From sequence record PZ386969.1: a stretch of DNA of 64,000 bases, one strand, 5' to 3'. Positions 4,135-48,273 of this stretch are shown here, piece after piece. A program made the position numbers and the translations under genes. How positions within the stretch are numbered: position 1 is the stretch's first letter; every line of letters starts with the position of its first letter. Source of the DNA: a phage. The notes below the pieces were generated by a model. That model searched no databases. It was not told the DNA's origin and was given only the letters and a program-made list of their open reading frames with translations.

Positions 4135-5103
4135 ATGGCCGACTTCAAGAAGACAATCGATAAGATCAAGGTTCTGAACACGAAGGGATTGTCCCAGGCT
4201 CAGAAGCAATTGTCTTATCCCCTAGACGTTACTGGGGGTAAGACCTTGGGACACTATGTCCTATTCAACATCAACCGCATCTCCGGTTCATCTTATGGCA
4301 ACACGGCTGCTCAGACTATCGAGAACCCAATACAGAACCCTCTGGGGAATACTCCTGTGGTCTATGGGTCCAAGTCTGGTTCCATCACCAAATATGCATG
4401 GGCGCGTCACGTTCGTTCGAACGAATCTATTGTTCTGTGTATGCCGGAGTCCATTACAACCAACTATGGTGTTGGCTGGAACGGTAGCGAGCTGGGGCTG
4501 GCTGGTATGGGGGCACAGTTCCTTTCCCGCGCCGCCCAAGACATGACTCAGTTTAAACTGGGTGATGCGCTCAACGTCGGGAAGGAGATGGGGCGATTCG
4601 CTGCCACCAAGGCTATCCAATCTGCGTCGGAGGCTATTCCATTCCTGCCGAGCATTAACGCTCATGACACCCTTGAGTTGTTCACAGGCACCATGACCAA
4701 CCCATATGTGGAGATGATCTTCCAGGGTGTTCGCAACCGTGAGATTCCATTTACATTCAAATTCACGCCGCGATCTCAGAAGGAAGCCAAGATGGTCCGT
4801 GAGATCATCCGCATGTTCAAGATGCATATGTACCCAGAGTACAAGTACAACAAGAATTCCAGCGCGTTTTACTTGCATCCTTCAACATTCGACATTACGT
4901 TCATGGTCAATGGGGAGCGTAACCAGTGGCTGCACCGCATATCCACTTGTGTACTTTCCAACATGTTCGTCAACGAGACGCCGGACAGTTCATATGCGGT
5001 TCACAAAGATGATGGTATCGTGTCCACGCAGGTTGACATGACCTTCATTGAACTGGAGCCTCTACATAAAGGGCGCTTTGAAACCGAAGGCGATAGCTTC
5101 TAA
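4135..5103 (+). CDS. virion structural protein (baseplate/tail-tube associated, tentative)
   Basis: First gene of a four-gene plus-strand module ending in a tape-measure-like protein; size near T4 gp48/gp54; no enzymatic motifs. Confidence 0.45.
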   Translation: MADFKKTIDKIKVLNTKGLSQAQKQLSYPLDVTGGKTLGHYVLFNINRISGSSYGNTAAQTIENPIQNPLGNTPVVYGSKSGSITKYAWARHVRSNESIVLCMPESITTNYGVGWNGSELGLAGMGAQFLSRAAQDMTQFKLGDALNVGKEMGRFAATKAIQSASEAIPFLPSINAHDTLELFTGTMTNPYVEMIFQGVRNREIPFTFKFTPRSQKEAKMVREIIRMFKMHMYPEYKYNKNSSAFYLHPSTFDITFMVNGERNQWLHRISTCVLSNMFVNETPDSSYAVHKDDGIVSTQVDMTFIELEPLHKGRFETEGDSF

Positions 5104-5114
5104 GAGAGGATGCC

Positions 5115-5669
5115 ATGAAATATTTTGAGAAGTTTCCTCTTGTTTGGCATCAATTACAAGATGTCCAAGAGAACGATCAGGTGCTGTTACAGAACTTAAC
5201 GCGCCGTGTAATGATCTTACAGAAAATTAAGGACATCGAAGGGCTTCTCCTGCCGTATACGATCCAAGATGGGGAAACCCCAAGGTCTTTCGCAGAACGC
5301 GTTTACGGATCCTTCGAGTTGTTTTGGATACCTTGTCTGATAAACGGCATCATGGACATCAATAAGGACTGGCCGAAACCGGAACGCCGTATTGTTGAAG
5401 AACTGACTGCAGATTACGGCATCGATGGTATGTGGGATACAGCCTATTATGTCGACCAGTTCAACAATGTGACCGACGCCCGTGCTATCAAATTTGCATA
5501 TAACCTAGACCTAGATGAGCCGTCCATAATTGCTAACTATGGTCTGACGGCAGTTTCATACCATGATGATGCAATCAGTAAGAATGAAGCCAAACGGAAC
5601 ATCCAAGTACTCGACCCAGATTATGTGTCTTCGTTTGTCAATCAGCTGGAGCAGGAGTTGGCGAAATGA
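5115..5669 (+). CDS. virion structural protein (tentative)
   Basis: Translationally coupled within the structural module; 184 aa. Confidence 0.4.
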   Translation: MKYFEKFPLVWHQLQDVQENDQVLLQNLTRRVMILQKIKDIEGLLLPYTIQDGETPRSFAERVYGSFELFWIPCLINGIMDINKDWPKPERRIVEELTADYGIDGMWDTAYYVDQFNNVTDARAIKFAYNLDLDEPSIIANYGLTAVSYHDDAISKNEAKRNIQVLDPDYVSSFVNQLEQELAK

Positions 5670-7054
5670 TCGAAAACAGAGAGACCCAAGACGGTATTGT
5701 AACACCGTCAACAACATTTGACCTGAAGTATATGGCGATACTCCCTCATACACCCCAGGGCGGATCACCAACGCCATATGACCTGACGGCGTTGTTTGAG
5801 GAGTTCAACGTCTTCCAGGATCTGGGTCTTGAAGGGAAGTCATCTCCATCACTTACAGCCAATGTCTTGATAAAAGAAGGGTGGGACATTCTTGACACAA
5901 TGCCTATCTTGGGTGGTGAAGAAGTTGTGGTGTCATTCAAGAGTCCGGCGGCCTCGGAATACACCACTCTATCCCTGCGCGTAGCGCGTGTTGGGCGCGT
6001 AGCTGATGAGTCCAACAGCTCGTCCAAGAAAGCATTCTGGTTACACATGGTGACCACCGATGCCTACAAGGACAGCATGATCCGCTGCTCCCTCGGTCTT
6101 GAAGGTTCGTATTCTGACATGGCGAAGGCAATCTTCAATCAGTTGGAGTCGCGCACCAAGTTCGAAGACATCGACCCGTCATATGGTATTCAAGAGCGGT
6201 TCGCCACCCCGCTCTGGCCTGTGCTGCGATCTATTGATTATATGGCAAGCCGTTCTTATGACGAATTGTTCATGCCATTCGTTTTCTATGAAGACTTCAA
6301 TGGCTATCACTTCAAGAGCCTGACGACGTTGTTCAACCAGGGCAGCCAGTCATTGACGGCAGAAGAGAAGCAGGAACTGGCTCAGCAGAACAAGTTATTC
6401 CGTGATCCTCAGGACGCACCGCTCATGCAGGATAACAACTTCAACTCTGAGCGCTTTATGCGCACGATCATCAAGGCAGAGAAGAAGCTGGCGCGTGACC
6501 AGTTCATGGCAAACTACCGCGATGTCCTGGCGGTGAACGAGCGCGTCTACGACTTTGAGACCAAGACAGTCACCCCAACACAGCGCATCTATACTGAGTG
6601 GTTTGCAGAGACGGCTCACCTTGATCCGTTCCCGATGTTCTCAGATGAATTCAATCGTCAGAACGTCCGTTACATTGAAGCCCAGCCGGATGGAGCGGAG
6701 CAGATTGATTATGCTCGTCGTGTTATCAACTTCAGTCTTGCCAGCACTGTGATGCGCGTGTTGCTCGTTGGTGATAACCGCCTGAACGTCGGTCAGGTGT
6801 TCTACGTCGAAGACCAGTCCAACCGTCCTAAGAAGAACGAAAACCTGGCAGAGTTAAGTAAGCTATCGACAGGCCACTATATCGTGACCAAAGTGCGTCA
6901 CAAGATTTCCCGCCTAACCAAAGATTATCAGTGTATCGCTGAGATTGCCAAGGACAGTTTGCTGGAGCAGGTGCTTCCACCTCAGACCAATCAGACAACT
7001 GCTTCCACCACTACTCCTCAGGCGATTGAGAAAGGCCAAGCACAGAAGGTTTAA
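5666..7054 (+). CDS. virion structural protein (baseplate hub-like, tentative)
   Basis: ATGA overlap with upstream gene; 462 aa; sits immediately upstream of the tape-measure-like gene. Confidence 0.45.
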   Translation: MIENRETQDGIVTPSTTFDLKYMAILPHTPQGGSPTPYDLTALFEEFNVFQDLGLEGKSSPSLTANVLIKEGWDILDTMPILGGEEVVVSFKSPAASEYTTLSLRVARVGRVADESNSSSKKAFWLHMVTTDAYKDSMIRCSLGLEGSYSDMAKAIFNQLESRTKFEDIDPSYGIQERFATPLWPVLRSIDYMASRSYDELFMPFVFYEDFNGYHFKSLTTLFNQGSQSLTAEEKQELAQQNKLFRDPQDAPLMQDNNFNSERFMRTIIKAEKKLARDQFMANYRDVLAVNERVYDFETKTVTPTQRIYTEWFAETAHLDPFPMFSDEFNRQNVRYIEAQPDGAEQIDYARRVINFSLASTVMRVLLVGDNRLNVGQVFYVEDQSNRPKKNENLAELSKLSTGHYIVTKVRHKISRLTKDYQCIAEIAKDSLLEQVLPPQTNQTTASTTTPQAIEKGQAQKV

Positions 7055-42728: not shown

Positions 42729-43082
42729 TTACGACAGCTGCTTCAGTTTGTAGATCGTCTGGTAGCACAGTGTCTTGATATCGTCAAGAGTGCTCTGAAG
42801 GTGGGAGTCACACTGCTTGTAGATGCCATCGACGTCTATCACCACACTGTTAATATAGGAGATAGGGTCTGGGTTGTACAATTTGATATTCTCGAATGAT
42901 GGAACATACTGACCACCCGCACCGATGTATGCTTCGGTAAACGTGTCCAGCAAGCCCTCCAATTCCCCGTAGAACTCCCCGAGTGCCTTGTGCTTGGCAT
43001 AGGATGTTGTAACGAAGTGCAAGGCATGAGAGTGGGCTATAGCAAGCAGTCCACGGTTGATGAAAATACTCGCATTGACCAT
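42729..43082 (-). CDS. hypothetical protein
   Basis: ORF 42729..43136; start tentatively moved to internal ATG (MVNASIF). Confidence 0.35.
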   Translation of the reverse strand: MVNASIFINRGLLAIAHSHALHFVTTSYAKHKALGEFYGELEGLLDTFTEAYIGAGGQYVPSFENIKLYNPDPISYINSVVIDVDGIYKQCDSHLQSTLDDIKTLCYQTIYKLKQLS

Positions 43083-43155: not shown

Positions 43156-43461
43156 TTAGTCTTTGTCGGCAGGCTTGCCAAAGAAGAATTCGAAGCCGTC
43201 ATGGACAGCAACAACTTCCTGGCCTTGGGTAATGCCATGGGTCTGATCCGGAGTCAGCTTCACCTTGATAGTGTTGCCGTTGGTTAACTCCAGGTTGTAG
43301 ACATCCGCCTGATTGTCAGGGGTGATCTGGGTCACGGTAGCGCCGGAACACCACTGGGTGCCGTCAGCTTGCTTGGTGATGGATACGGTCTTACCCTGGA
43401 CACCAGCATGGGTCTGAGGTTTAGCGGCTTGTTCTTTAAAATATTCGATAAACGGTTTCAT
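43156..43461 (-). CDS. small late protein (hypothetical)
   Basis: GAGGAG RBS; exact TATAAATA box about 25-30 nt upstream; 101 aa. Confidence 0.45.
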   Translation of the reverse strand: MKPFIEYFKEQAAKPQTHAGVQGKTVSITKQADGTQWCSGATVTQITPDNQADVYNLELTNGNTIKVKLTPDQTHGITQGQEVVAVHDGFEFFFGKPADKD

Positions 43462-43485: not shown

Positions 43486-43493
43486 TATTTATA
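43486..43493 (-). promoter_or_regulatory. T4-type late promoter box TATAAATA
   Basis: Minus strand CTTATAAATAAC directly after the terminator hairpin and about 25-30 nt upstream of the ATG at 43461. Confidence 0.5.
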
Positions 43494-43517
43494 AGCCCCC
43501 GAAGGGGCTTTCAATGA

Positions 43518-46502
43518 TCAGATCTTAATCTGCATGTTGCCACCCAGGGACTGCTCGTACTCGCTGTATGCGCTTTCCCCGTTGTCTTGTGACCACTGGT
43601 CAGACTGCTGGGCGCGAGCCAGAGTCATCAGGTTTGGTTCAGTCGGGTTGTAACCCTTGGACTTCGCATCCCGGTACAGTGTCTGCAGGTACTGGTTGGC
43701 GCGGTCAATCTGAGCTTTGAACTCGCGATATGCCCCTTCAGTTGTGTTGCGGCGGAAGGTGATATCCCAGTCCACGTTCAGAGTCTGACCATCACGGCTT
43801 GCATAGATCTGCCAATCCAGGTCGCGACCTTTTGGTGCGTTGTCGCGAATGGAGTCGGCGTATGCCGCAAGGTCGTCCTTCGGATTGTGCGACGTGCTTT
43901 TCAGAAATAGTGCATGACCCATACCACCGTTTGGCTGAAGAGACCATTTTCCTGTTTCTCTTCCCAGGCGTTCTATGTTGTTGAGTTGGTTTATCGACAA
44001 TTCAGAAGAGTCAAATAATACCACATCACGTTTTTTGGGGGTTCTCACATAAGGGGTGAGATCGATGTCGATCATCCGGTTTATAAATTCTACCACTTCA
44101 GCTTGTTTCTTGGGCAATGTGATATTGATATCCGGCGTGTTTGCTACTTTCTCCAGGCGTTTATTTTCTGCGCTTATCATGGACAGCATAATTTGTGTAA
44201 CTTTGCCGTCAGACAAGTTGTAATCATTCCAAATCACTTCACCTTTATCCGTGATGGTTATATCGTTCAAGAACACCTGGTTTGGGTTGTATGACTGACT
44301 TTTCAACTGTTGGAGGTTTCTGGAAAGATATACCATTTTTGATGAAATCTCATCAATCACACTCTGGACCATATCTTTGTTTAAAGGAAGTTCATATGTC
44401 TTCGGATTGTTCAGGGTACGCCCTTTCTGAGAGACAATTGGGGTGAATGCAACTTTACCTTTGTCGTAGTAATAGGTCACGTTGGTTATCATAGAAGTAC
44501 CGGCGTATTTTCCCGTTTCGGGGAAATTGACATCCCACCGAATGGACATACCGTTGACAGTCTCACCAAACACCATGGCGTTGCTTGGTATCTTCAGGGT
44601 TCCAGAGTTGACCAGATCAGCGCCTTGGGCATTCAGGTCGATAGAACCATAGATGGCCCCGGTGATACGATCTTTCAGCATCAGGGTCTTGTCGCCCTTC
44701 TCTGGGATGATTTCCAGCGGGTGCTTGCCACGCGGAGGTTCTTTGATGAGTTCCAGTAGAGCAGTGTTCCCTGGCTTCACACGATTCAGGACAGCGTCGG
44801 ACACTGTCAGAGTCCAGTTTGCGGTTTCCACATAACCCCAGCCCCGAGAACGGCGAATGGCTTTGATAGGATATGGAGCGCTTGTTGGCACTGCGCTAAT
44901 TTCCCATTTGCCAGTGTACTGGGTCTTAGCAACCTCAAAGATGGACGCAATTACCGCCTTGGCGACGTCACGGGCGCTACCTTTGGCCACGTTCTCCTCT
45001 TCAGCAATTTCGCTGAAAACTGAGTATTGAACGAAACCAGCGAGGACGTTTGTGAAGTTGACAACGATAACCAACCCGCCTGCCGTCGTGTAACGACCAG
45101 CGCCCACGCGACGGATGTTTTCACCAGGAAGAATAGAAGTGTCCAGCCCAACGTTGGTATCAATGATACCCAGAACACGAGCGATGAAACCGCTGTCACG
45201 TAATTGATCAACACTGGTTGCACCCTCGGTCGAATCTGATGTGGATTTAGACACTTTGTTCAACTTGATAGAGACAAGGGTTTCCCCGTTGACACCGATG
45301 ATATCCCATTCAGTACCCTGCTCGTTCGAGGTGCGGGCAATCTTGCGCTTTGAATTGATGGCACCTTCGTAACGCCCGTTCTTGACCACAACAGAGGCTG
45401 TGGCAGCATCAGCCGCACTTGCTGCATTTGAAAAGTCTGGGTCAGAAATACTGATGTCGACGTCACCGTTTTGAGAACGCATGCGAACGCCGTTTTTGAA
45501 TCGTTCCACGTTTACTTCCCGAGCACCAAGTCGTTTGGCATCAATAACAGCAGTTCCAGAACCGATAATGTTGGCTGGGTTATTTCTGTCCGAACCTGCC
45601 GGCACAACAGGCGCAGATTTCTGTTGAGAACCTTTCCAAAATTTTGTGGACGCCGTGGTGAAATCATTCAGGATACTGATAGGGACTTGTGGTAATTTCA
45701 ACTGACGAGCAATGAAATCAGCACTTTGCCCACGCACAGGTTTCTCATTCATGTATGCGCCAACATACACGCCCGGCTCATTGTAGTGGGGAGCGATATT
45801 TGCCGTATTCGTGCGGCCTCTCTCCTTACCAGCCCATATCAACATGGGCTGATCCCCGTTTGAAGTTAATTTCCATCCGTTGGAATTATCAACAGAAGAT
45901 GACACACCCACATCCGGAGTATTGTTCTGAACCGGAACGTCACCGACCTTGTCTGGATCATCCCAGGTGATACCCTGCATCTTCGGACCGTCGAATACCT
46001 GAGCCGGATCTTTGCCCTTACGAACTAGCCACACATAACCACGGTCAGGGACAGGCGCGTAGGTCAGGTCCATGACATTCAGTTTCTGCTTCAGACCGGA
46101 CTGGCGGATGATCTTAGGAATCAGGGTCATACCGCGATCCAGCGCTTTCTTCGAGAAGTTGACAGCATAGCCATCGATAGTTTTGCCCAGAGGAGTCGCC
46201 ATGAATTGTTTGGTCGCTTCGATCATGGAAGCAATAACGCGCATTGGGTTCTTGAAGCGAGCGATGGCGTCAGGATAGACGGAGCCGCGCTTCTGGCCGA
46301 TGAAAACCTGACGAACGCTCTTGCCCAGTCCCTGAGGAGTATAGAACTGAATGCGGTATTCCTTATCATCTTCGTCGACGAAGGTGAAGAACACATCGCC
46401 TGCGTTCTTCTTGCCCATGGTCAGCTCATACGGAGCGGAGTTGAACGCTTCGTCCAACTGATCTCTTTCCTGCATGAACTGGAGGAAACTTAGCTTTGAC
46501 AT
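43518..46502 (-). CDS. large hypothetical protein (994 aa), possibly virion-associated
   Basis: Long uninterrupted ORF with AGGAG RBS; Gly/Asn/Ser-rich; no polymerase, P-loop or nuclease motifs recognised. Confidence 0.5.
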   Translation of the reverse strand: MSKLSFLQFMQERDQLDEAFNSAPYELTMGKKNAGDVFFTFVDEDDKEYRIQFYTPQGLGKSVRQVFIGQKRGSVYPDAIARFKNPMRVIASMIEATKQFMATPLGKTIDGYAVNFSKKALDRGMTLIPKIIRQSGLKQKLNVMDLTYAPVPDRGYVWLVRKGKDPAQVFDGPKMQGITWDDPDKVGDVPVQNNTPDVGVSSSVDNSNGWKLTSNGDQPMLIWAGKERGRTNTANIAPHYNEPGVYVGAYMNEKPVRGQSADFIARQLKLPQVPISILNDFTTASTKFWKGSQQKSAPVVPAGSDRNNPANIIGSGTAVIDAKRLGAREVNVERFKNGVRMRSQNGDVDISISDPDFSNAASAADAATASVVVKNGRYEGAINSKRKIARTSNEQGTEWDIIGVNGETLVSIKLNKVSKSTSDSTEGATSVDQLRDSGFIARVLGIIDTNVGLDTSILPGENIRRVGAGRYTTAGGLVIVVNFTNVLAGFVQYSVFSEIAEEENVAKGSARDVAKAVIASIFEVAKTQYTGKWEISAVPTSAPYPIKAIRRSRGWGYVETANWTLTVSDAVLNRVKPGNTALLELIKEPPRGKHPLEIIPEKGDKTLMLKDRITGAIYGSIDLNAQGADLVNSGTLKIPSNAMVFGETVNGMSIRWDVNFPETGKYAGTSMITNVTYYYDKGKVAFTPIVSQKGRTLNNPKTYELPLNKDMVQSVIDEISSKMVYLSRNLQQLKSQSYNPNQVFLNDITITDKGEVIWNDYNLSDGKVTQIMLSMISAENKRLEKVANTPDINITLPKKQAEVVEFINRMIDIDLTPYVRTPKKRDVVLFDSSELSINQLNNIERLGRETGKWSLQPNGGMGHALFLKSTSHNPKDDLAAYADSIRDNAPKGRDLDWQIYASRDGQTLNVDWDITFRRNTTEGAYREFKAQIDRANQYLQTLYRDAKSKGYNPTEPNLMTLARAQQSDQWSQDNGESAYSEYEQSLGGNMQIKI

Positions 46503-46577
46503 TTTATATCTCCTGACTGAATTAACGGCGGTTTCTTCTAATTAGCGAAACCAAAAGGGAGCGTCAGCCCCCTTATC

Positions 46578-46961: not shown

Positions 46962-46990
46962 AGTATAGGGAAGGATATTGAAGAAGTAAA
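46962..46990 (-). promoter_or_regulatory. early promoter B (-35 TTTACT, 17-nt spacer, -10 TATACT)
   Basis: Minus strand CCTTTACTTCTTCAATATCCTTCCCTATACTTC; same architecture and near-identical downstream leader as promoter A. Confidence 0.5.
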
Positions 46991-47020: not shown

Positions 47021-47659
47021 TTACGGCGTCAGATTCACAACCGGAATGTGGGATCGAATACCTGCGATGATGTCCTTCAGCTGAGGCTTCCATCCATCCA
47101 CCAAACGGGGGAGAGCGATAGCGCCAGGCTGGACCAAAATGATGTCGCTGCCTGTGATATTGTGCTGAGGGAACTGGGCAAGGTACTGCTCCATGGTGAC
47201 ACCCTCATCAATCAGAACTGCACCGACGTCAGACGATGCGTAGGTTGCACCCAGGCCGTCAACACCCCATGCCAAGATACCCCAGTCAGGGATGTTGGCT
47301 TCAGATGTGATGGTGAATCCAAACACGGTGTTCAGCGAAGTAAAGGAATAGACATCGTGGGTGATGTCATACACTAGATACCCCTTGGCCAGCATATCGG
47401 CAAAGATCGCGTCCGTATCGCCAGCAGCCGGAGTCGGCACAGTAAACAACAGCTCGCCATCAGGAGGAGCAGGATACGTGCCGAGGGCATAGAGGCACCA
47501 TGCGTCAATACACTTCTTGATAAATGCCTCTGGTGCGACATAATCGGCAAGGCGAACCGTGCCTGAGTACTCGGATACGATGATGCCTTCCTTCGCACCC
47601 TGTAGAGCAATGAAGACCAAGATATGTTCATATCCGGCCTGAGATGGAGTGATGTTCAT
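47021..47659 (-). CDS. hypothetical protein
   Basis: ORF 47021..47755; start moved to ATG (MNITPSQ) overlapping the upstream stop (TAATG). Confidence 0.45.
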   Translation of the reverse strand: MNITPSQAGYEHILVFIALQGAKEGIIVSEYSGTVRLADYVAPEAFIKKCIDAWCLYALGTYPAPPDGELLFTVPTPAAGDTDAIFADMLAKGYLVYDITHDVYSFTSLNTVFGFTITSEANIPDWGILAWGVDGLGATYASSDVGAVLIDEGVTMEQYLAQFPQHNITGSDIILVQPGAIALPRLVDGWKPQLKDIIAGIRSHIPVVNLTP

Positions 47660-48273
47660 TATCTTGTCCTCTTCAGTTTCTCTATTGTGTGCTTGTTCAT
47701 GGCGATCACCTGAGGATCTACCTCGGAGATGGTCCGGCCTTCGAAAGACACACATTTCTGAAGATATTTAGCTTTCTTCACGACGTCAGCAGCATAAGCG
47801 TTCGATGCGGGATTACGGGCGAAGCCAGCATTGTAAGAGGAGAGGGATTTGCGGATATTCTGATTGTGATAGGTCAGCCAGAACTGCATCTCATCGAGGG
47901 CGGCTTGCGCGGCATATTCTTGGTCGGTCAGCAACTTTATGGCGACATTGGCATAGCACTTGCGATTCTTACAACCTTCGCGATCACCAACTGTCTTCAC
48001 CTTGTTCTGAAAGGCTCCCATGTTGGCCGCCTTGAGGCCGTATCGCATTGACACTACATCTTCACCAGCGCGGCTCTCTCGCCAAGATATGGCGGCCAGA
48101 GTGTAGCCAAGATCTTGTGTCTTGCCTACATGATAGGCGGTTGCCATCGTATTAAGTTGTTGCTCGGAGAAATTATAAACACATTGACTTGTATTTTGGG
48201 AAGCGTGCACATTCCCGCTGGCAATGGTAAAGGTCACGGACAAGGCCATGGCCTTCAACGTTGTCATCGTCAT
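47659..48273 (-). CDS. secreted lytic transglycosylase-like protein (SLT domain)
   Basis: N-terminal signal peptide (MTMTTLKAMALSVTFTIASGNVHA); SLT-like motifs ESRAG, GAFQ, SYNAGF. Confidence 0.5.
   Translation of the reverse strand: MTMTTLKAMALSVTFTIASGNVHASQNTSQCVYNFSEQQLNTMATAYHVGKTQDLGYTLAAISWRESRAGEDVVSMRYGLKAANMGAFQNKVKTVGDREGCKNRKCYANVAIKLLTDQEYAAQAALDEMQFWLTYHNQNIRKSLSSYNAGFARNPASNAYAADVVKKAKYLQKCVSFEGRTISEVDPQVIAMNKHTIEKLKRTR

What the first reader, a model, noticed from the sequence alone, without database searches (positions are those of the whole stretch)
43518..46502. 994-aa protein of unknown function next to a late-promoter gene
This is the longest ORF in the window after nrdA and has no P-loop, polymerase, nuclease or fibre-repeat signature I can recognise. 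It lies between replication genes, and its downstream neighbour carries an exact late promoter. It may be a large virion-internal or injected protein.
Basis: inference. Interest (0 to 1): 0.5.

Follow-up and report, generated by a model that had tools for sequence, protein, structure and literature searches.

The report
Alt-like packaged virion protein, unknown cargo
This 994-residue "hypothetical" gene of a Vi1-like (Ackermannviridae) phage encodes an abundant virion protein whose first ~180 residues match the head-packaging end of phage T4's injected Alt enzyme, so it is most likely carried inside the capsid and shot into the host with the DNA, although what its variable cargo does is still unknown.

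Summary
The ORF is real (43518..46502, minus strand, ATG with an AGGAG ribosome site, 994 aa) and is the longest in the window. The window is an Agtrevirus-like Ackermannviridae genome (97% nt identity to Escherichia phage vB_EcoM-ZQ1). All databases call the protein hypothetical and Pfam and NCBIfam find nothing.

- Orthologs are among the most abundant virion proteins by mass spectrometry: Sajous1 gp214 with 196 spectra (top five), and LIMEstone1 ORF081/082 with 23 unique peptides.
- Residues ~13-176 are homologous to the N-terminal domain of T4 Alt, the capsid-packaged, injected ADP-ribosyltransferase (hhalign 93.5%, E 2e-7; Foldseek probability 1.0 to six Alt proteins). Target E18 (LDE|AFNS) aligns with Alt's known prohead-protease site ITE-6.
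- Residues 794-868 are homologous to the whole mature Ip9 internal head protein of T-even phages.

The same N-domain heads proteins of 280-1400 aa with unrelated C-terminal parts, a few carrying Alt-type ADP-ribosyltransferase domains. The target has no ADP-ribosyltransferase domain, and its cargo is modular and of unknown function. The downstream late-promoter gene starts with a T4-like capsid-targeting sequence.

Verdict: a new variant of a known kind. Head-internal location and injection are inferred, not shown.

The parts
43518..46502 (-). Complete CDS, 994 aa plus stop; Alt-like packaged virion protein (phrog_3867)
46510..46514 (-). Shine-Dalgarno AGGAG, 8 nt before the ATG
   Evidence: read directly from the sequence
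46449..46502 (-). aa 1-18: leader and predicted propeptide MSKLSFLQFMQERDQLDE. It contains a capsid-targeting-sequence-like F-x-x-F-M-x-E motif and ends in the predicted prohead-protease site L-D-E|A-F-N.
   Evidence: The motif [LIV]-x-E-[AS]-[FL]-[ND] follows leaders of 4-45 aa in 69 of 76 N-domain proteins. Target E18 aligns with T4 Alt E6, the known ITE-6 cleavage site (PMC5694885). Cleavage in this protein is inferred.
45969..46448 (-). aa 19-178: Alt-N-like domain with a GNAT-like alpha/beta fold; the conserved, family-defining module
45885..45968 (-). aa 179-206: acidic, low-complexity linker (pI 4.05), predicted disordered
45603..45884 (-). aa 207-300: module A, beta-rich plus helices, function unknown
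   Evidence: AF2 pLDDT 70-81; present in 104 of 120 homolog clusters
45216..45602 (-). aa 301-429: module B, an optional beta-rich insert absent from Kuttervirus orthologs
   Evidence: present in 56 of 120 clusters
44127..45215 (-). aa 430-792: modules C and D, beta-sheet plus long-helix units, function unknown. D-like units are repeated in some relatives.
   Evidence: 35% identity to Sajous1 gp214; AF2 pLDDT 70-89; repeats in P0124 and P0133. Only weak, unconvincing Foldseek PDB hits to ChuS/HemS and SpeG.
43875..44126 (-). aa 793-876: Ip9-like module, homologous to the whole mature T-even internal head protein Ip9 (the part after its capsid-targeting sequence)
   Evidence: phrog_7673 'internal head protein' E 3e-10. 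BLASTP to IME08 Ip9 E 9e-13, 37% identity, Ip9 residues 19-92. Present in 38 of 120 clusters.
43521..43874 (-). aa 877-994: acidic C-terminal module with the signature W-D-I-T-F-R-R-N-T. It also occurs free-standing in many small metagenomic proteins.
43493..43510 (-). GC hairpin (AAGCCCC-TTCG-GGGGCTT) just after the stop codon; likely terminator or RNA end, overlapping the late promoter
   Evidence: read
43486..43493 (-). Exact T4-type late promoter TATAAATA serving the downstream gene
43156..43461 (-). Downstream 101-aa gene. Its N-terminus MKPFIEYFKE resembles the T4 capsid-targeting sequence MKTYQEFIAE; probably a small internal head protein.
   Evidence: Its longer homologs Sajous1 gp215 and LIMEstone1 ORF080 are virion proteins.
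46555..46574 (-). Terminator-like hairpin between the upstream 111-aa gene and the target
46962..46990 (-). Sigma-70/middle-type promoter-like site (TTTACT-17-TATACT) upstream of the 111-aa gene; candidate source of the target's transcript
   Evidence: a consensus match only; the number of such sites does not exceed shuffles. LIMEstone1's authors annotate a 'middle promoter' at the equivalent place.

Best explanation
The gene encodes an Alt-type capsid-packaged ('internal' or ejection) protein of an Ackermannviridae phage.

Proposed mechanism:
1. The protein is made in time for head assembly.
2. Its N-terminal leader plus the ~160-residue Alt-N-like domain take it into the scaffolding core of the T4-like prohead.
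3. The gp21-type prohead protease removes the first 18 residues at L-D-E|A-F-N.
4. The ~108-kDa mature protein stays in the DNA-filled head in tens to hundreds of copies.
5. It leaves the head with the DNA at infection and delivers its C-terminal cargo into the host, where it acts before any phage gene is expressed.

The cargo is a string of exchangeable modules: beta-rich modules A-D, an Ip9-like module and a 'TFRRNT' C-terminal module. Its most likely role is host takeover or protection against host defences, as for T4 Alt and IPI.

Shown: the ORF; homology of the N-domain to T4 Alt's N-terminal domain, including the aligned protease site; homology of residues 794-868 to Ip9; the modular, mosaic family architecture; and abundant presence of orthologs in purified virions (published).

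Inferred: location inside the head, cleavage, ejection, and any activity of the cargo.
For: Virion presence:
- Sajous1 gp214 is the syntenic ortholog (BLASTP 74%, 35% and 77% identity over three blocks). It gave 196 spectra in CsCl-purified virions and was among the top five proteins (PMC10892097).
- LIMEstone1 ORF082 plus ORF081 together form the ortholog. They are 'confirmed structural proteins' with 4 and 23 unique peptides and 55% coverage for ORF081 (PMC3296691).

Link to T4 Alt:
- Profile-profile alignment of the N-domain family with T-even Alt N-termini gives probability 93.5%, E 2.3e-7 over 161 columns (target 13-176 against Alt 2-179). A divergent subgroup gives 94.9%, E 4.4e-8.
- The high-confidence N-domain model (pLDDT 88.7) matches six Alt proteins in BFVD at probability 1.00, TM about 0.55-0.60.
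- Three distant family members carry the N-domain plus an Alt-type ADP-ribosyltransferase domain (PF03496, phrog_802).

Internal-protein content:
- Residues 794-868 match the mature Ip9 internal head protein.

Context:
- Sajous1 gp211, gp215, gp216 and gp217 and LIMEstone1 ORF078, ORF080 and ORF085 (the counterparts of gp217, gp215 and gp212) are virion proteins. Of these, gp211, gp212, gp215 and gp217 have homologs among the window's neighbouring genes.
- Sajous1 gp215, gp216 and the window's 101-aa gene begin with T4-like capsid-targeting sequences.
Against: - No experiment locates the protein inside the head or shows injection in any Ackermannviridae phage.
- No TATAAATA precedes the target, and a terminator-like hairpin lies upstream, so late expression is not evident from the sequence.
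- Some family members have leaders of only 4-7 residues, too short to be a separate targeting peptide.
- The stored part of the Sajous1 peptide table does not contain gp214 peptides, so N-terminal processing could not be checked.
- The target has no ADP-ribosyltransferase or any other recognisable catalytic domain.
- Sequence similarity to a single Alt sequence is weak: HMM score 6.5 bits and hhalign P 0.007. The link rests on profile and structure comparisons.
- The apparent abundance is higher than T4 Alt's ~40 copies, which could also fit a structural role.
Confidence: 0.68

Rival explanations
1. It is a tail-associated structural protein. The authors of the Sajous1 and FrontPhageNews genomes call the ortholog a 'tail completion protein' and link it to a tail-borne iron ('ferrojan horse') entry device.
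For: The label appears in PMC10892097 and in the FrontPhageNews record. High abundance in virions is compatible with a tail or baseplate component.
Against: There is no homology to T4 gp3/gp15 or to any tail family in Pfam, PHROGs or NCBIfam. Genuine tail-completion proteins are listed separately in the same proteome. The N-domain is homologous to a head-core protein and a second module to an internal head protein. The paper gives no evidence for the label.
Confidence: 0.07
2. It is a non-ejected head-core or DNA-organising protein. It enters the prohead through the Alt-like domain but serves a structural role (core architecture, DNA condensation or pressure control) and stays in the emptied capsid.
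For: The peptide and spectral counts rival those of the tail sheath and portal. The mature protein is basic overall (pI about 9; the N-domain has charge +10). No enzymatic cargo was detected.
Against: The cargo is highly mosaic and its modules are optional even among 97%-identical phages. That pattern is typical of conflict proteins rather than architectural ones. The Alt and Ip relatives are ejected proteins. T4 Alt and the internal proteins are dispensable for assembly (PMC9958956).
Confidence: 0.15
3. The conserved N-domain is itself an enzyme, a GNAT-like acyltransferase that modifies a host or phage target, rather than a packaging module.
Confidence: 0.08
4. It is a non-virion early or middle protein involved in replication or recombination, as its gene neighbourhood (gp46/47, primase) would suggest.
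For: The gene lies among replication genes, lacks its own late promoter, and has a sigma-70/middle-like promoter upstream.
Against: Orthologs are abundant in purified virions in two independent studies. Several adjacent small genes are also virion proteins. No nucleic-acid enzyme signature is present.
Confidence: 0.02

Closest known systems
Bacteriophage T4 Alt (gpAlt), the capsid-packaged, injected NAD+:arginine ADP-ribosyltransferase
   Same: The N-terminal ~170-residue domain is homologous (hhalign 93.5%; Foldseek probability 1.0). It sits at the extreme N-terminus behind a short leader that ends in (I/L)-x-E, at the position of Alt's known ITE-6 prohead-protease site. Both are large proteins found in virions of phages with T4-type head assembly. 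Some members of the target's family have the full Alt architecture, N-domain plus ADP-ribosyltransferase domain.
   Different: The target has no ADP-ribosyltransferase domain and no other part of Alt. Its cargo is ~800 residues of unrelated modules. It appears more abundant than Alt (~40 copies). It lies among replication genes, not next to baseplate genes. Packaging, cleavage and injection have not been tested.
T-even internal head proteins (IPI-IPIII and the variable Ip family, e.g. Ip9 of IME08/JS98/RB15/K3)
   Same: Residues 794-868 are homologous to the complete mature Ip9 (E 9e-13). The leader (FLQFMQE) and the neighbouring gene's N-terminus (MKPFIEYFKE) resemble the T4 capsid-targeting sequence MKTYQEFIAE. 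The family shows the same hypervariability described for T-even internal proteins (PMC3012670).
   Different: Internal proteins are small (about 80-200 aa), single-module proteins targeted by a 10-residue peptide alone. Here the Ip9-like unit is an internal module of a 110-kDa protein headed by a folded domain.
MuF-domain polymorphic toxins and 'polyvalent proteins' (Jamet 2017; Iyer et al. 2017, PMC5512222)
   Same: The logic is the same: a conserved head-incorporation module is fused to variable, exchangeable C-terminal modules that are presumed to be injected with the DNA.
   Different: The delivery module is different (Alt-N/GNAT-like, not MuF). [quoted passage not shown] The target's modules have no recognisable enzymatic activity.
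Ackermannviridae 'unknown structural proteins' LIMEstone1 ORF081/ORF082 and Sajous1 gp214 (phrog_3867)
   Same: These are direct orthologs at the same genomic position.
   Different: They have different module content (531 aa and 795 aa against 994 aa); neither has the Ip9-like module, and at least gp214 also lacks module B. They are annotated as unknown or as a 'tail completion protein', without the Alt or Ip links.

Membership tests
T4 Alt-type packaged proteins (Alt N-terminal domain) | N-terminal domain homologous to Alt residues ~1-180 | tested here: met
   hhalign 93.5%, E 2.3e-7 over 161 columns. Foldseek BFVD hits to six Alt proteins, probability 1.00. Comparisons against a single Alt sequence are weak.
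T4 Alt-type packaged proteins (Alt N-terminal domain) | Short N-terminal leader ending in the (I/L)-x-E prohead-protease motif at the start of the domain | tested here: met
   LDE18|AFN aligns with Alt ITE6|LFD. The motif is conserved in 69 of 76 family members. Actual cleavage is not testable here.
T4 Alt-type packaged proteins (Alt N-terminal domain) | ADP-ribosyltransferase catalytic domain (PF03496, R-S-E type) | tested here: not met
   No Pfam hit even at E <= 1 and no phmmer match to the Alt ADP-ribosyltransferase domain. The target is therefore not an Alt ortholog or an ADP-ribosyltransferase; only distant family members P0185, P0192 and P0198 carry this domain.
T4 Alt-type packaged proteins (Alt N-terminal domain) | Presence in the mature virion | not testable with these tools
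   Shown for orthologs by published LC-MS/MS (PMC10892097, PMC3296691), not for this phage.
T4 Alt-type packaged proteins (Alt N-terminal domain) | Injection into the host with the DNA | not testable with these tools
   No data exist for any Ackermannviridae phage.
T-even internal head proteins (Ip family) | N-terminal capsid-targeting sequence of the MKTYQEFIAE type followed by a gp21 cleavage site | tested here: inconclusive
   The target leader MSKLSFLQFMQE shares only the F-x-x-F-[IM]-x-E pattern. The neighbouring 101-aa gene (MKPFIEYFKE) fits much better. These are the only two matches among 1337 ATG-started ORF beginnings in the window.
T-even internal head proteins (Ip family) | Homology to a named internal protein | tested here: met
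   Residues 794-868 match IME08 Ip9 residues 19-92, E 9e-13, and phrog_7673, E 3e-10. This holds for that module only.
T-even internal head proteins (Ip family) | Small single-domain protein (about 80-200 aa) | tested here: not met
   The target is 994 aa with at least seven modules.
Tail completion proteins (T4 gp3/gp15 type) | Sequence or profile homology to the gp3 or gp15 families | tested here: not met
   No such hit in Pfam, PHROGs or NCBIfam.
GNAT acyl-CoA N-acyltransferases | GNAT fold | tested here: met
GNAT acyl-CoA N-acyltransferases | Acetyl-CoA pyrophosphate-binding motif Q/R-x-x-G-x-G/A | tested here: not met
   The motif is not present in the family consensus (inspection by eye). 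No Pfam acetyltransferase family hit.
MuF-type polymorphic phage toxins / polyvalent proteins | MuF (or DarA/DarB, virion RNA polymerase) head-incorporation domain plus enzymatic effector domains | tested here: not met
   No MuF or effector domain in Pfam. The resemblance is in logic only.

The most novel reading that the evidence does not exclude
The Alt N-terminal (GNAT-like) domain is a general capsid-loading and delivery module. On this reading it defines a large, so far undescribed polymorphic family of injected proteins in myoviruses with T4-type head assembly: Ackermannviridae, T4-like Straboviridae, Vibrio and Aeromonas phages, and the Agrobacterium jumbo phage Atu_ph07. Interchangeable cargo would include ADP-ribosyltransferase, zeta-toxin-like kinase, deaminase, ParB/Srx, Ip9-like and the 'TFRRNT' module. 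The 994-aa protein would then be the major injected effector platform of Ackermannviridae, and its mosaic modules would be anti-defence or host-takeover factors that differ between phages infecting different hosts.
Probability: 0.45. Interest if true: 0.65.

Novelty: new variant of a known kind. Interest (0 to 1): 0.5.

Why it matters
Ackermannviridae (Vi1-like) phages are widely used candidates for therapy and biocontrol against Salmonella, E. coli O157, Klebsiella and Dickeya. One of their most abundant virion proteins is nevertheless annotated 'hypothetical' or, without evidence, 'tail completion protein'.

Tying it to T4 Alt and the Ip proteins has three consequences.
- It gives a testable mechanism: loading through the prohead core, cleavage at LDE18, and ejection.
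- It points to a whole block of neighbouring genes as internal or ejected proteins.
- It suggests that Alt's N-terminal domain, whose role in T4 is undefined, is a portable packaging module. Such a module could be used to load foreign proteins into these phages, and it marks a polymorphic set of early-acting effectors relevant to host range and anti-defence.

Tried and rejected
- Pfam, NCBIfam and PDB-sequence profile searches on the whole protein gave nothing. The only hits were noise-level: Lectin_C_term E 0.21, FliL and chorismate mutase E > 0.1.
- Foldseek of the full-length AF2 model (pLDDT 63.6) against the PDB gave only unconvincing hits. ChuS/HemS/PhuS reached E about 1e-3 to 3e-4 but with TM about 0.1 and rmsd 28 Å. 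SpeG GNATs had TM about 0.4. I assign no cargo function from these.
- The 'tail completion protein' label is rejected for lack of any homology.
- An attempt to see N-terminal processing in the published Sajous1 peptide table failed, because the stored file is truncated before the gp214 peptides.
- The phiD3 proteome paper gave no usable band-to-gene table.
- Two of the three large homology searches returned very little: Alt N-terminus 5 hits, N-domain alignment 6 hits. PF26846, the Pfam family precomputed on Alt N-termini, is not in the local Pfam copy, so direct membership could not be scored.
- The HMM against a single T4 Alt sequence was only marginal. The link became significant only after building an Alt N-terminal profile from viral contigs.
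- No late promoter was found for the target itself, and the sigma-70-like site count does not exceed shuffles.
- A literature search for Ackermannviridae transcript timing found nothing relevant.
Full report
**Observation.** AGGAG lies eight bases upstream. It is the longest ORF in the window, ahead of the gp46 homolog (781 aa) and NrdA (760 aa), so 'longest after nrdA' is a small error. The exact T4-type late promoter TATAAATA lies at 43486-43493 (minus strand), between the target's stop codon and the next gene's ATG at 43461. It overlaps the 3' arm of a GC hairpin. None lies upstream of the target itself. There one finds a terminator-like hairpin (46555-46574) and, further up, a sigma-70/middle-like site before the preceding 111-aa gene.

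**Source.** The window belongs to an Ackermannviridae phage of the Aglimvirinae/Agtrevirus kind, with 97% nucleotide identity to Escherichia phage vB_EcoM-ZQ1 over this gene. Gene order is conserved across the family: RNase H, gp55 late sigma factor, gp47, gp46, small genes, a gene annotated 'RegB', two further small genes, the target, small genes, then primase.

**What the databases say.** Pfam-A and NCBIfam find nothing. PHROGs places the protein in phrog_3867 (function unknown) and matches residues 796-852 to phrog_7673, 'internal head protein'. All 272 homologs found in 5.8 billion proteins are unnamed or 'hypothetical', with no precomputed Pfam domain and lengths of 555-1208 aa.

**Published evidence that it is a virion protein.**
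- Sajous1 (Kuttervirus) gp214, 795 aa, is the syntenic ortholog. It shares 74% identity over residues 1-290, 35% over 430-792 and 77% over 877-994. In LC-MS/MS of CsCl-purified Sajous1 virions it gave 196 spectra, among the five best-represented proteins. The flanking gp211, gp215, gp216 and gp217 were also detected (PMC10892097). The authors call it a 'tail completion protein' without giving evidence.
- In LIMEstone1 (Limestonevirus) the ortholog is split by a frameshift into ORF082 and ORF081. Both are 'confirmed structural proteins'. ORF081 has 23 unique peptides and 55% coverage, second only to the tail sheath. The authors noted an unexplained cluster of structural proteins at ORF78-85 (PMC3296691).

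**Architecture.**
- An exhaustive profile search of 1.84 billion cluster representatives found 142 relatives. It showed that the protein is modular.
- Profile positions ~5-180 head proteins of 280-1400 aa whose remaining parts are unrelated.
- The last ~100 residues (signature W-D-I-T-F-R-R-N-T) also occur free-standing in 110-280-aa proteins.
- Among the 120 closest homolog clusters, the modules are present as follows:

| Module | Clusters of 120 |
|---|---|
| N-domain | 116 |
| A (207-300) | 104 |
| B (301-429) | 56 |
| C (430-620) | 116 |
| D (621-792) | 117 |
| Ip9-like (793-876) | 38 |
| C-terminal module | 93 |

- Even the 97%-identical ZQ1 gene is about 300 bp longer.

**The N-terminal motif.** Every N-domain protein has a variable leader of 4-45 residues, followed by the near-invariant motif [LIV]-x-E-[AS]-[FL]-[ND]-S-x-P-Y.

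**The link to T4 Alt.**
- Three of 50 distant N-domain proteins carry PF03496 ADP-ribosyltransferase domains that match T4 Alt's catalytic domain and the 'Alt-like' PHROGs.
- T4 Alt begins MELITE|LFDED..., and the review literature says gp21 trims small N-terminal peptides from IPI-III and gpAlt (PMC9958956).
- Mass spectrometry has placed the N-terminal cut at ITE-6, with a second cut at LTE-619 (PMC5694885).
- Against a single Alt sequence the family HMM is only marginal.
- I then built a nine-sequence T-even Alt N-terminal profile from viral contigs. With it hhalign gives probability 93.5%, E 2.3e-7 over 161 columns (target 13-176 against Alt 2-179). The divergent half of the family gives 94.9%, E 4.4e-8. 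Target L16-D17-E18|A19-F20-N21 lies on Alt I4-T5-E6|L7-F8-D9.
- Independently, an AF2 model of residues 1-205 built on a 36-sequence alignment is confident (pLDDT 88.7, pTM 0.80).
- In BFVD that model matches Alt proteins of phiAS5, HY03, CF1, 50AhydR13PP, SP18 and Henu6 at probability 1.00, TM 0.54-0.60.
- It also matches proteins annotated with zeta-toxin, deaminase or ParB/Srx domains.

**The link to internal head proteins.** Residues 794-868 align with residues 19-92 of IME08 Ip9. That is the whole mature protein after its capsid-targeting sequence MKTYQEFIAE. Identity is 37%, E 9e-13. T-even internal proteins are described as a hypervariable set of injected anti-defence proteins that share only the targeting sequence (PMC3012670).

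**The neighbours.**
- The downstream 101-aa gene, the one with the exact late promoter, starts MKPFIEYFKE.
- Its longer homolog Sajous1 gp215 starts the same way, and gp216 starts MKGFPDFLKE. Both are virion proteins.
- A pattern scan of 1337 ATG-started ORF beginnings in the window finds this kind of N-terminus only in the target and in that neighbour.

**Interpretation.** The simplest reading is an Alt-type capsid-packaged protein. It would be loaded into the T4-like prohead core through its leader and Alt-N-like domain, trimmed at LDE18, kept in the filled head in many copies, and ejected with the DNA carrying a modular cargo. Homologies, architecture and virion presence in orthologs are shown. 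Head-internal location, cleavage, ejection and cargo activity are inferred.

**What the cargo does.** This remains open. The full-length model (pLDDT 63.6, with good beta-rich domains at 210-290 and 310-730) gave no convincing PDB match.

**Expression.** Timing is also open. The gene has no late promoter of its own and may be read from the promoter-like site upstream of the 111-aa gene, which LIMEstone1's authors annotated as a middle promoter.

**Rivals.**
- Tail protein: no homology supports it, and it conflicts with the Alt and Ip links.
- Non-ejected core or DNA-organising protein: compatible with the abundance and basic charge, less so with the mosaic cargo.
- Catalytic GNAT: a fold match only.
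- Replication protein: contradicted by the proteomics.

**Novelty.** The concept of injected head proteins is classical, and the orthologs are already listed as 'unknown structural proteins'. I did not find the following described:
- homology of this abundant Ackermannviridae protein to Alt's N-terminal domain, including the protease site;
- the embedded Ip9-like module;
- the use of the Alt-N domain in front of many unrelated cargos.

The survey of injected 'polyvalent proteins' states that Alt-family ADP-ribosyltransferases are not part of such architectures (PMC5512222). I rate the finding as a new variant of a known kind, of moderate interest.

Noticed in passing
window 43156-43461 (-), promoter 43486-43493: The 101-aa gene behind the exact late promoter begins MKPFIEYFKE, close to the T4 capsid-targeting sequence MKTYQEFIAE. 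It corresponds to only the first 100 residues of the 189-aa phrog_4048 family, whose members Sajous1 gp215 and LIMEstone1 ORF080 are virion proteins. There is a weak TOBE-domain hit (E 0.002). It is probably a truncated small internal head protein.
   Followed up: partly
window 47659-48273 (-): The gene annotated 'RegB' in relatives has a signal-peptide-like N-terminus (MTMTTLKAMALSVTFTIASGNVHA) and a weak SLT lytic-transglycosylase match (PF01464, E 4e-4). Its Sajous1 homolog gp211 gave 31 spectra in virions. The RegB label looks wrong.
   Followed up: partly
window 42729-43082 (-) and 47021-47659 (-): The 117-aa DUF5856 (Dps/ferritin-like) gene and the 212-aa DUF7270 gene flanking the target are virion proteins in relatives (Sajous1 gp217; LIMEstone1 ORF078 and ORF085). 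The block from about 42.7 to 48.3 kb looks like a cluster of virion-internal proteins embedded among replication genes.
   Followed up: partly
L005 (LIMEstone1 HE600015) 5416-7012: The LIMEstone1 ortholog is annotated as two overlapping ORFs (ORF082 and ORF081), with the frame lost between residues ~104 and 157 of the target. The near-identical Dickeya phage PP35 has one intact 531-aa gene. This is either a sequencing error or a real frameshift, and peptides from both halves were found.
   Followed up: partly
L007 (Vibrio phage 1.255.O) 10942-13403: Besides the syntenic 1139-aa homolog, this phage has a free-standing 182-aa N-domain gene (ORF040) abutting a 637-aa gene (ORF041). This is a split arrangement reminiscent of the 'split RNA polymerase ADP-ribosylase' annotated in Acinetobacter phage Henu6.
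   Followed up: no
window 43521-43874 (-); proteins P0174-P0259: The C-terminal module (W-D-I-T-F-R-R-N-T...) occurs alone in many 110-280-aa metagenomic proteins. Several of these have an N-terminal zinc-ribbon-like C-x-K-C-G...H-Y-W-Y-K-G-G-W-x-C. In isolated phages at tblastn sensitivity it is confined almost entirely to Ackermannviridae (253 of 254 records). Its function is unknown.
   Followed up: partly
window 43493-43510 (-): A seven-base-pair GC hairpin (AAGCCCC-TTCG-GGGGCTT) directly after the target's stop codon shares its last base with the TATAAATA late promoter. Termination of the upstream transcript and late initiation are therefore packed into about 25 bases.
   Followed up: no
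L006 (T4) 5066-5451: T4 alt.-1 and alt.-2, annotated as an old duplication of the first part of alt, are copies of the Alt-N domain, including the MELITE|LFD start. This shows that the module duplicates independently of the ADP-ribosyltransferase domain.
   Followed up: no
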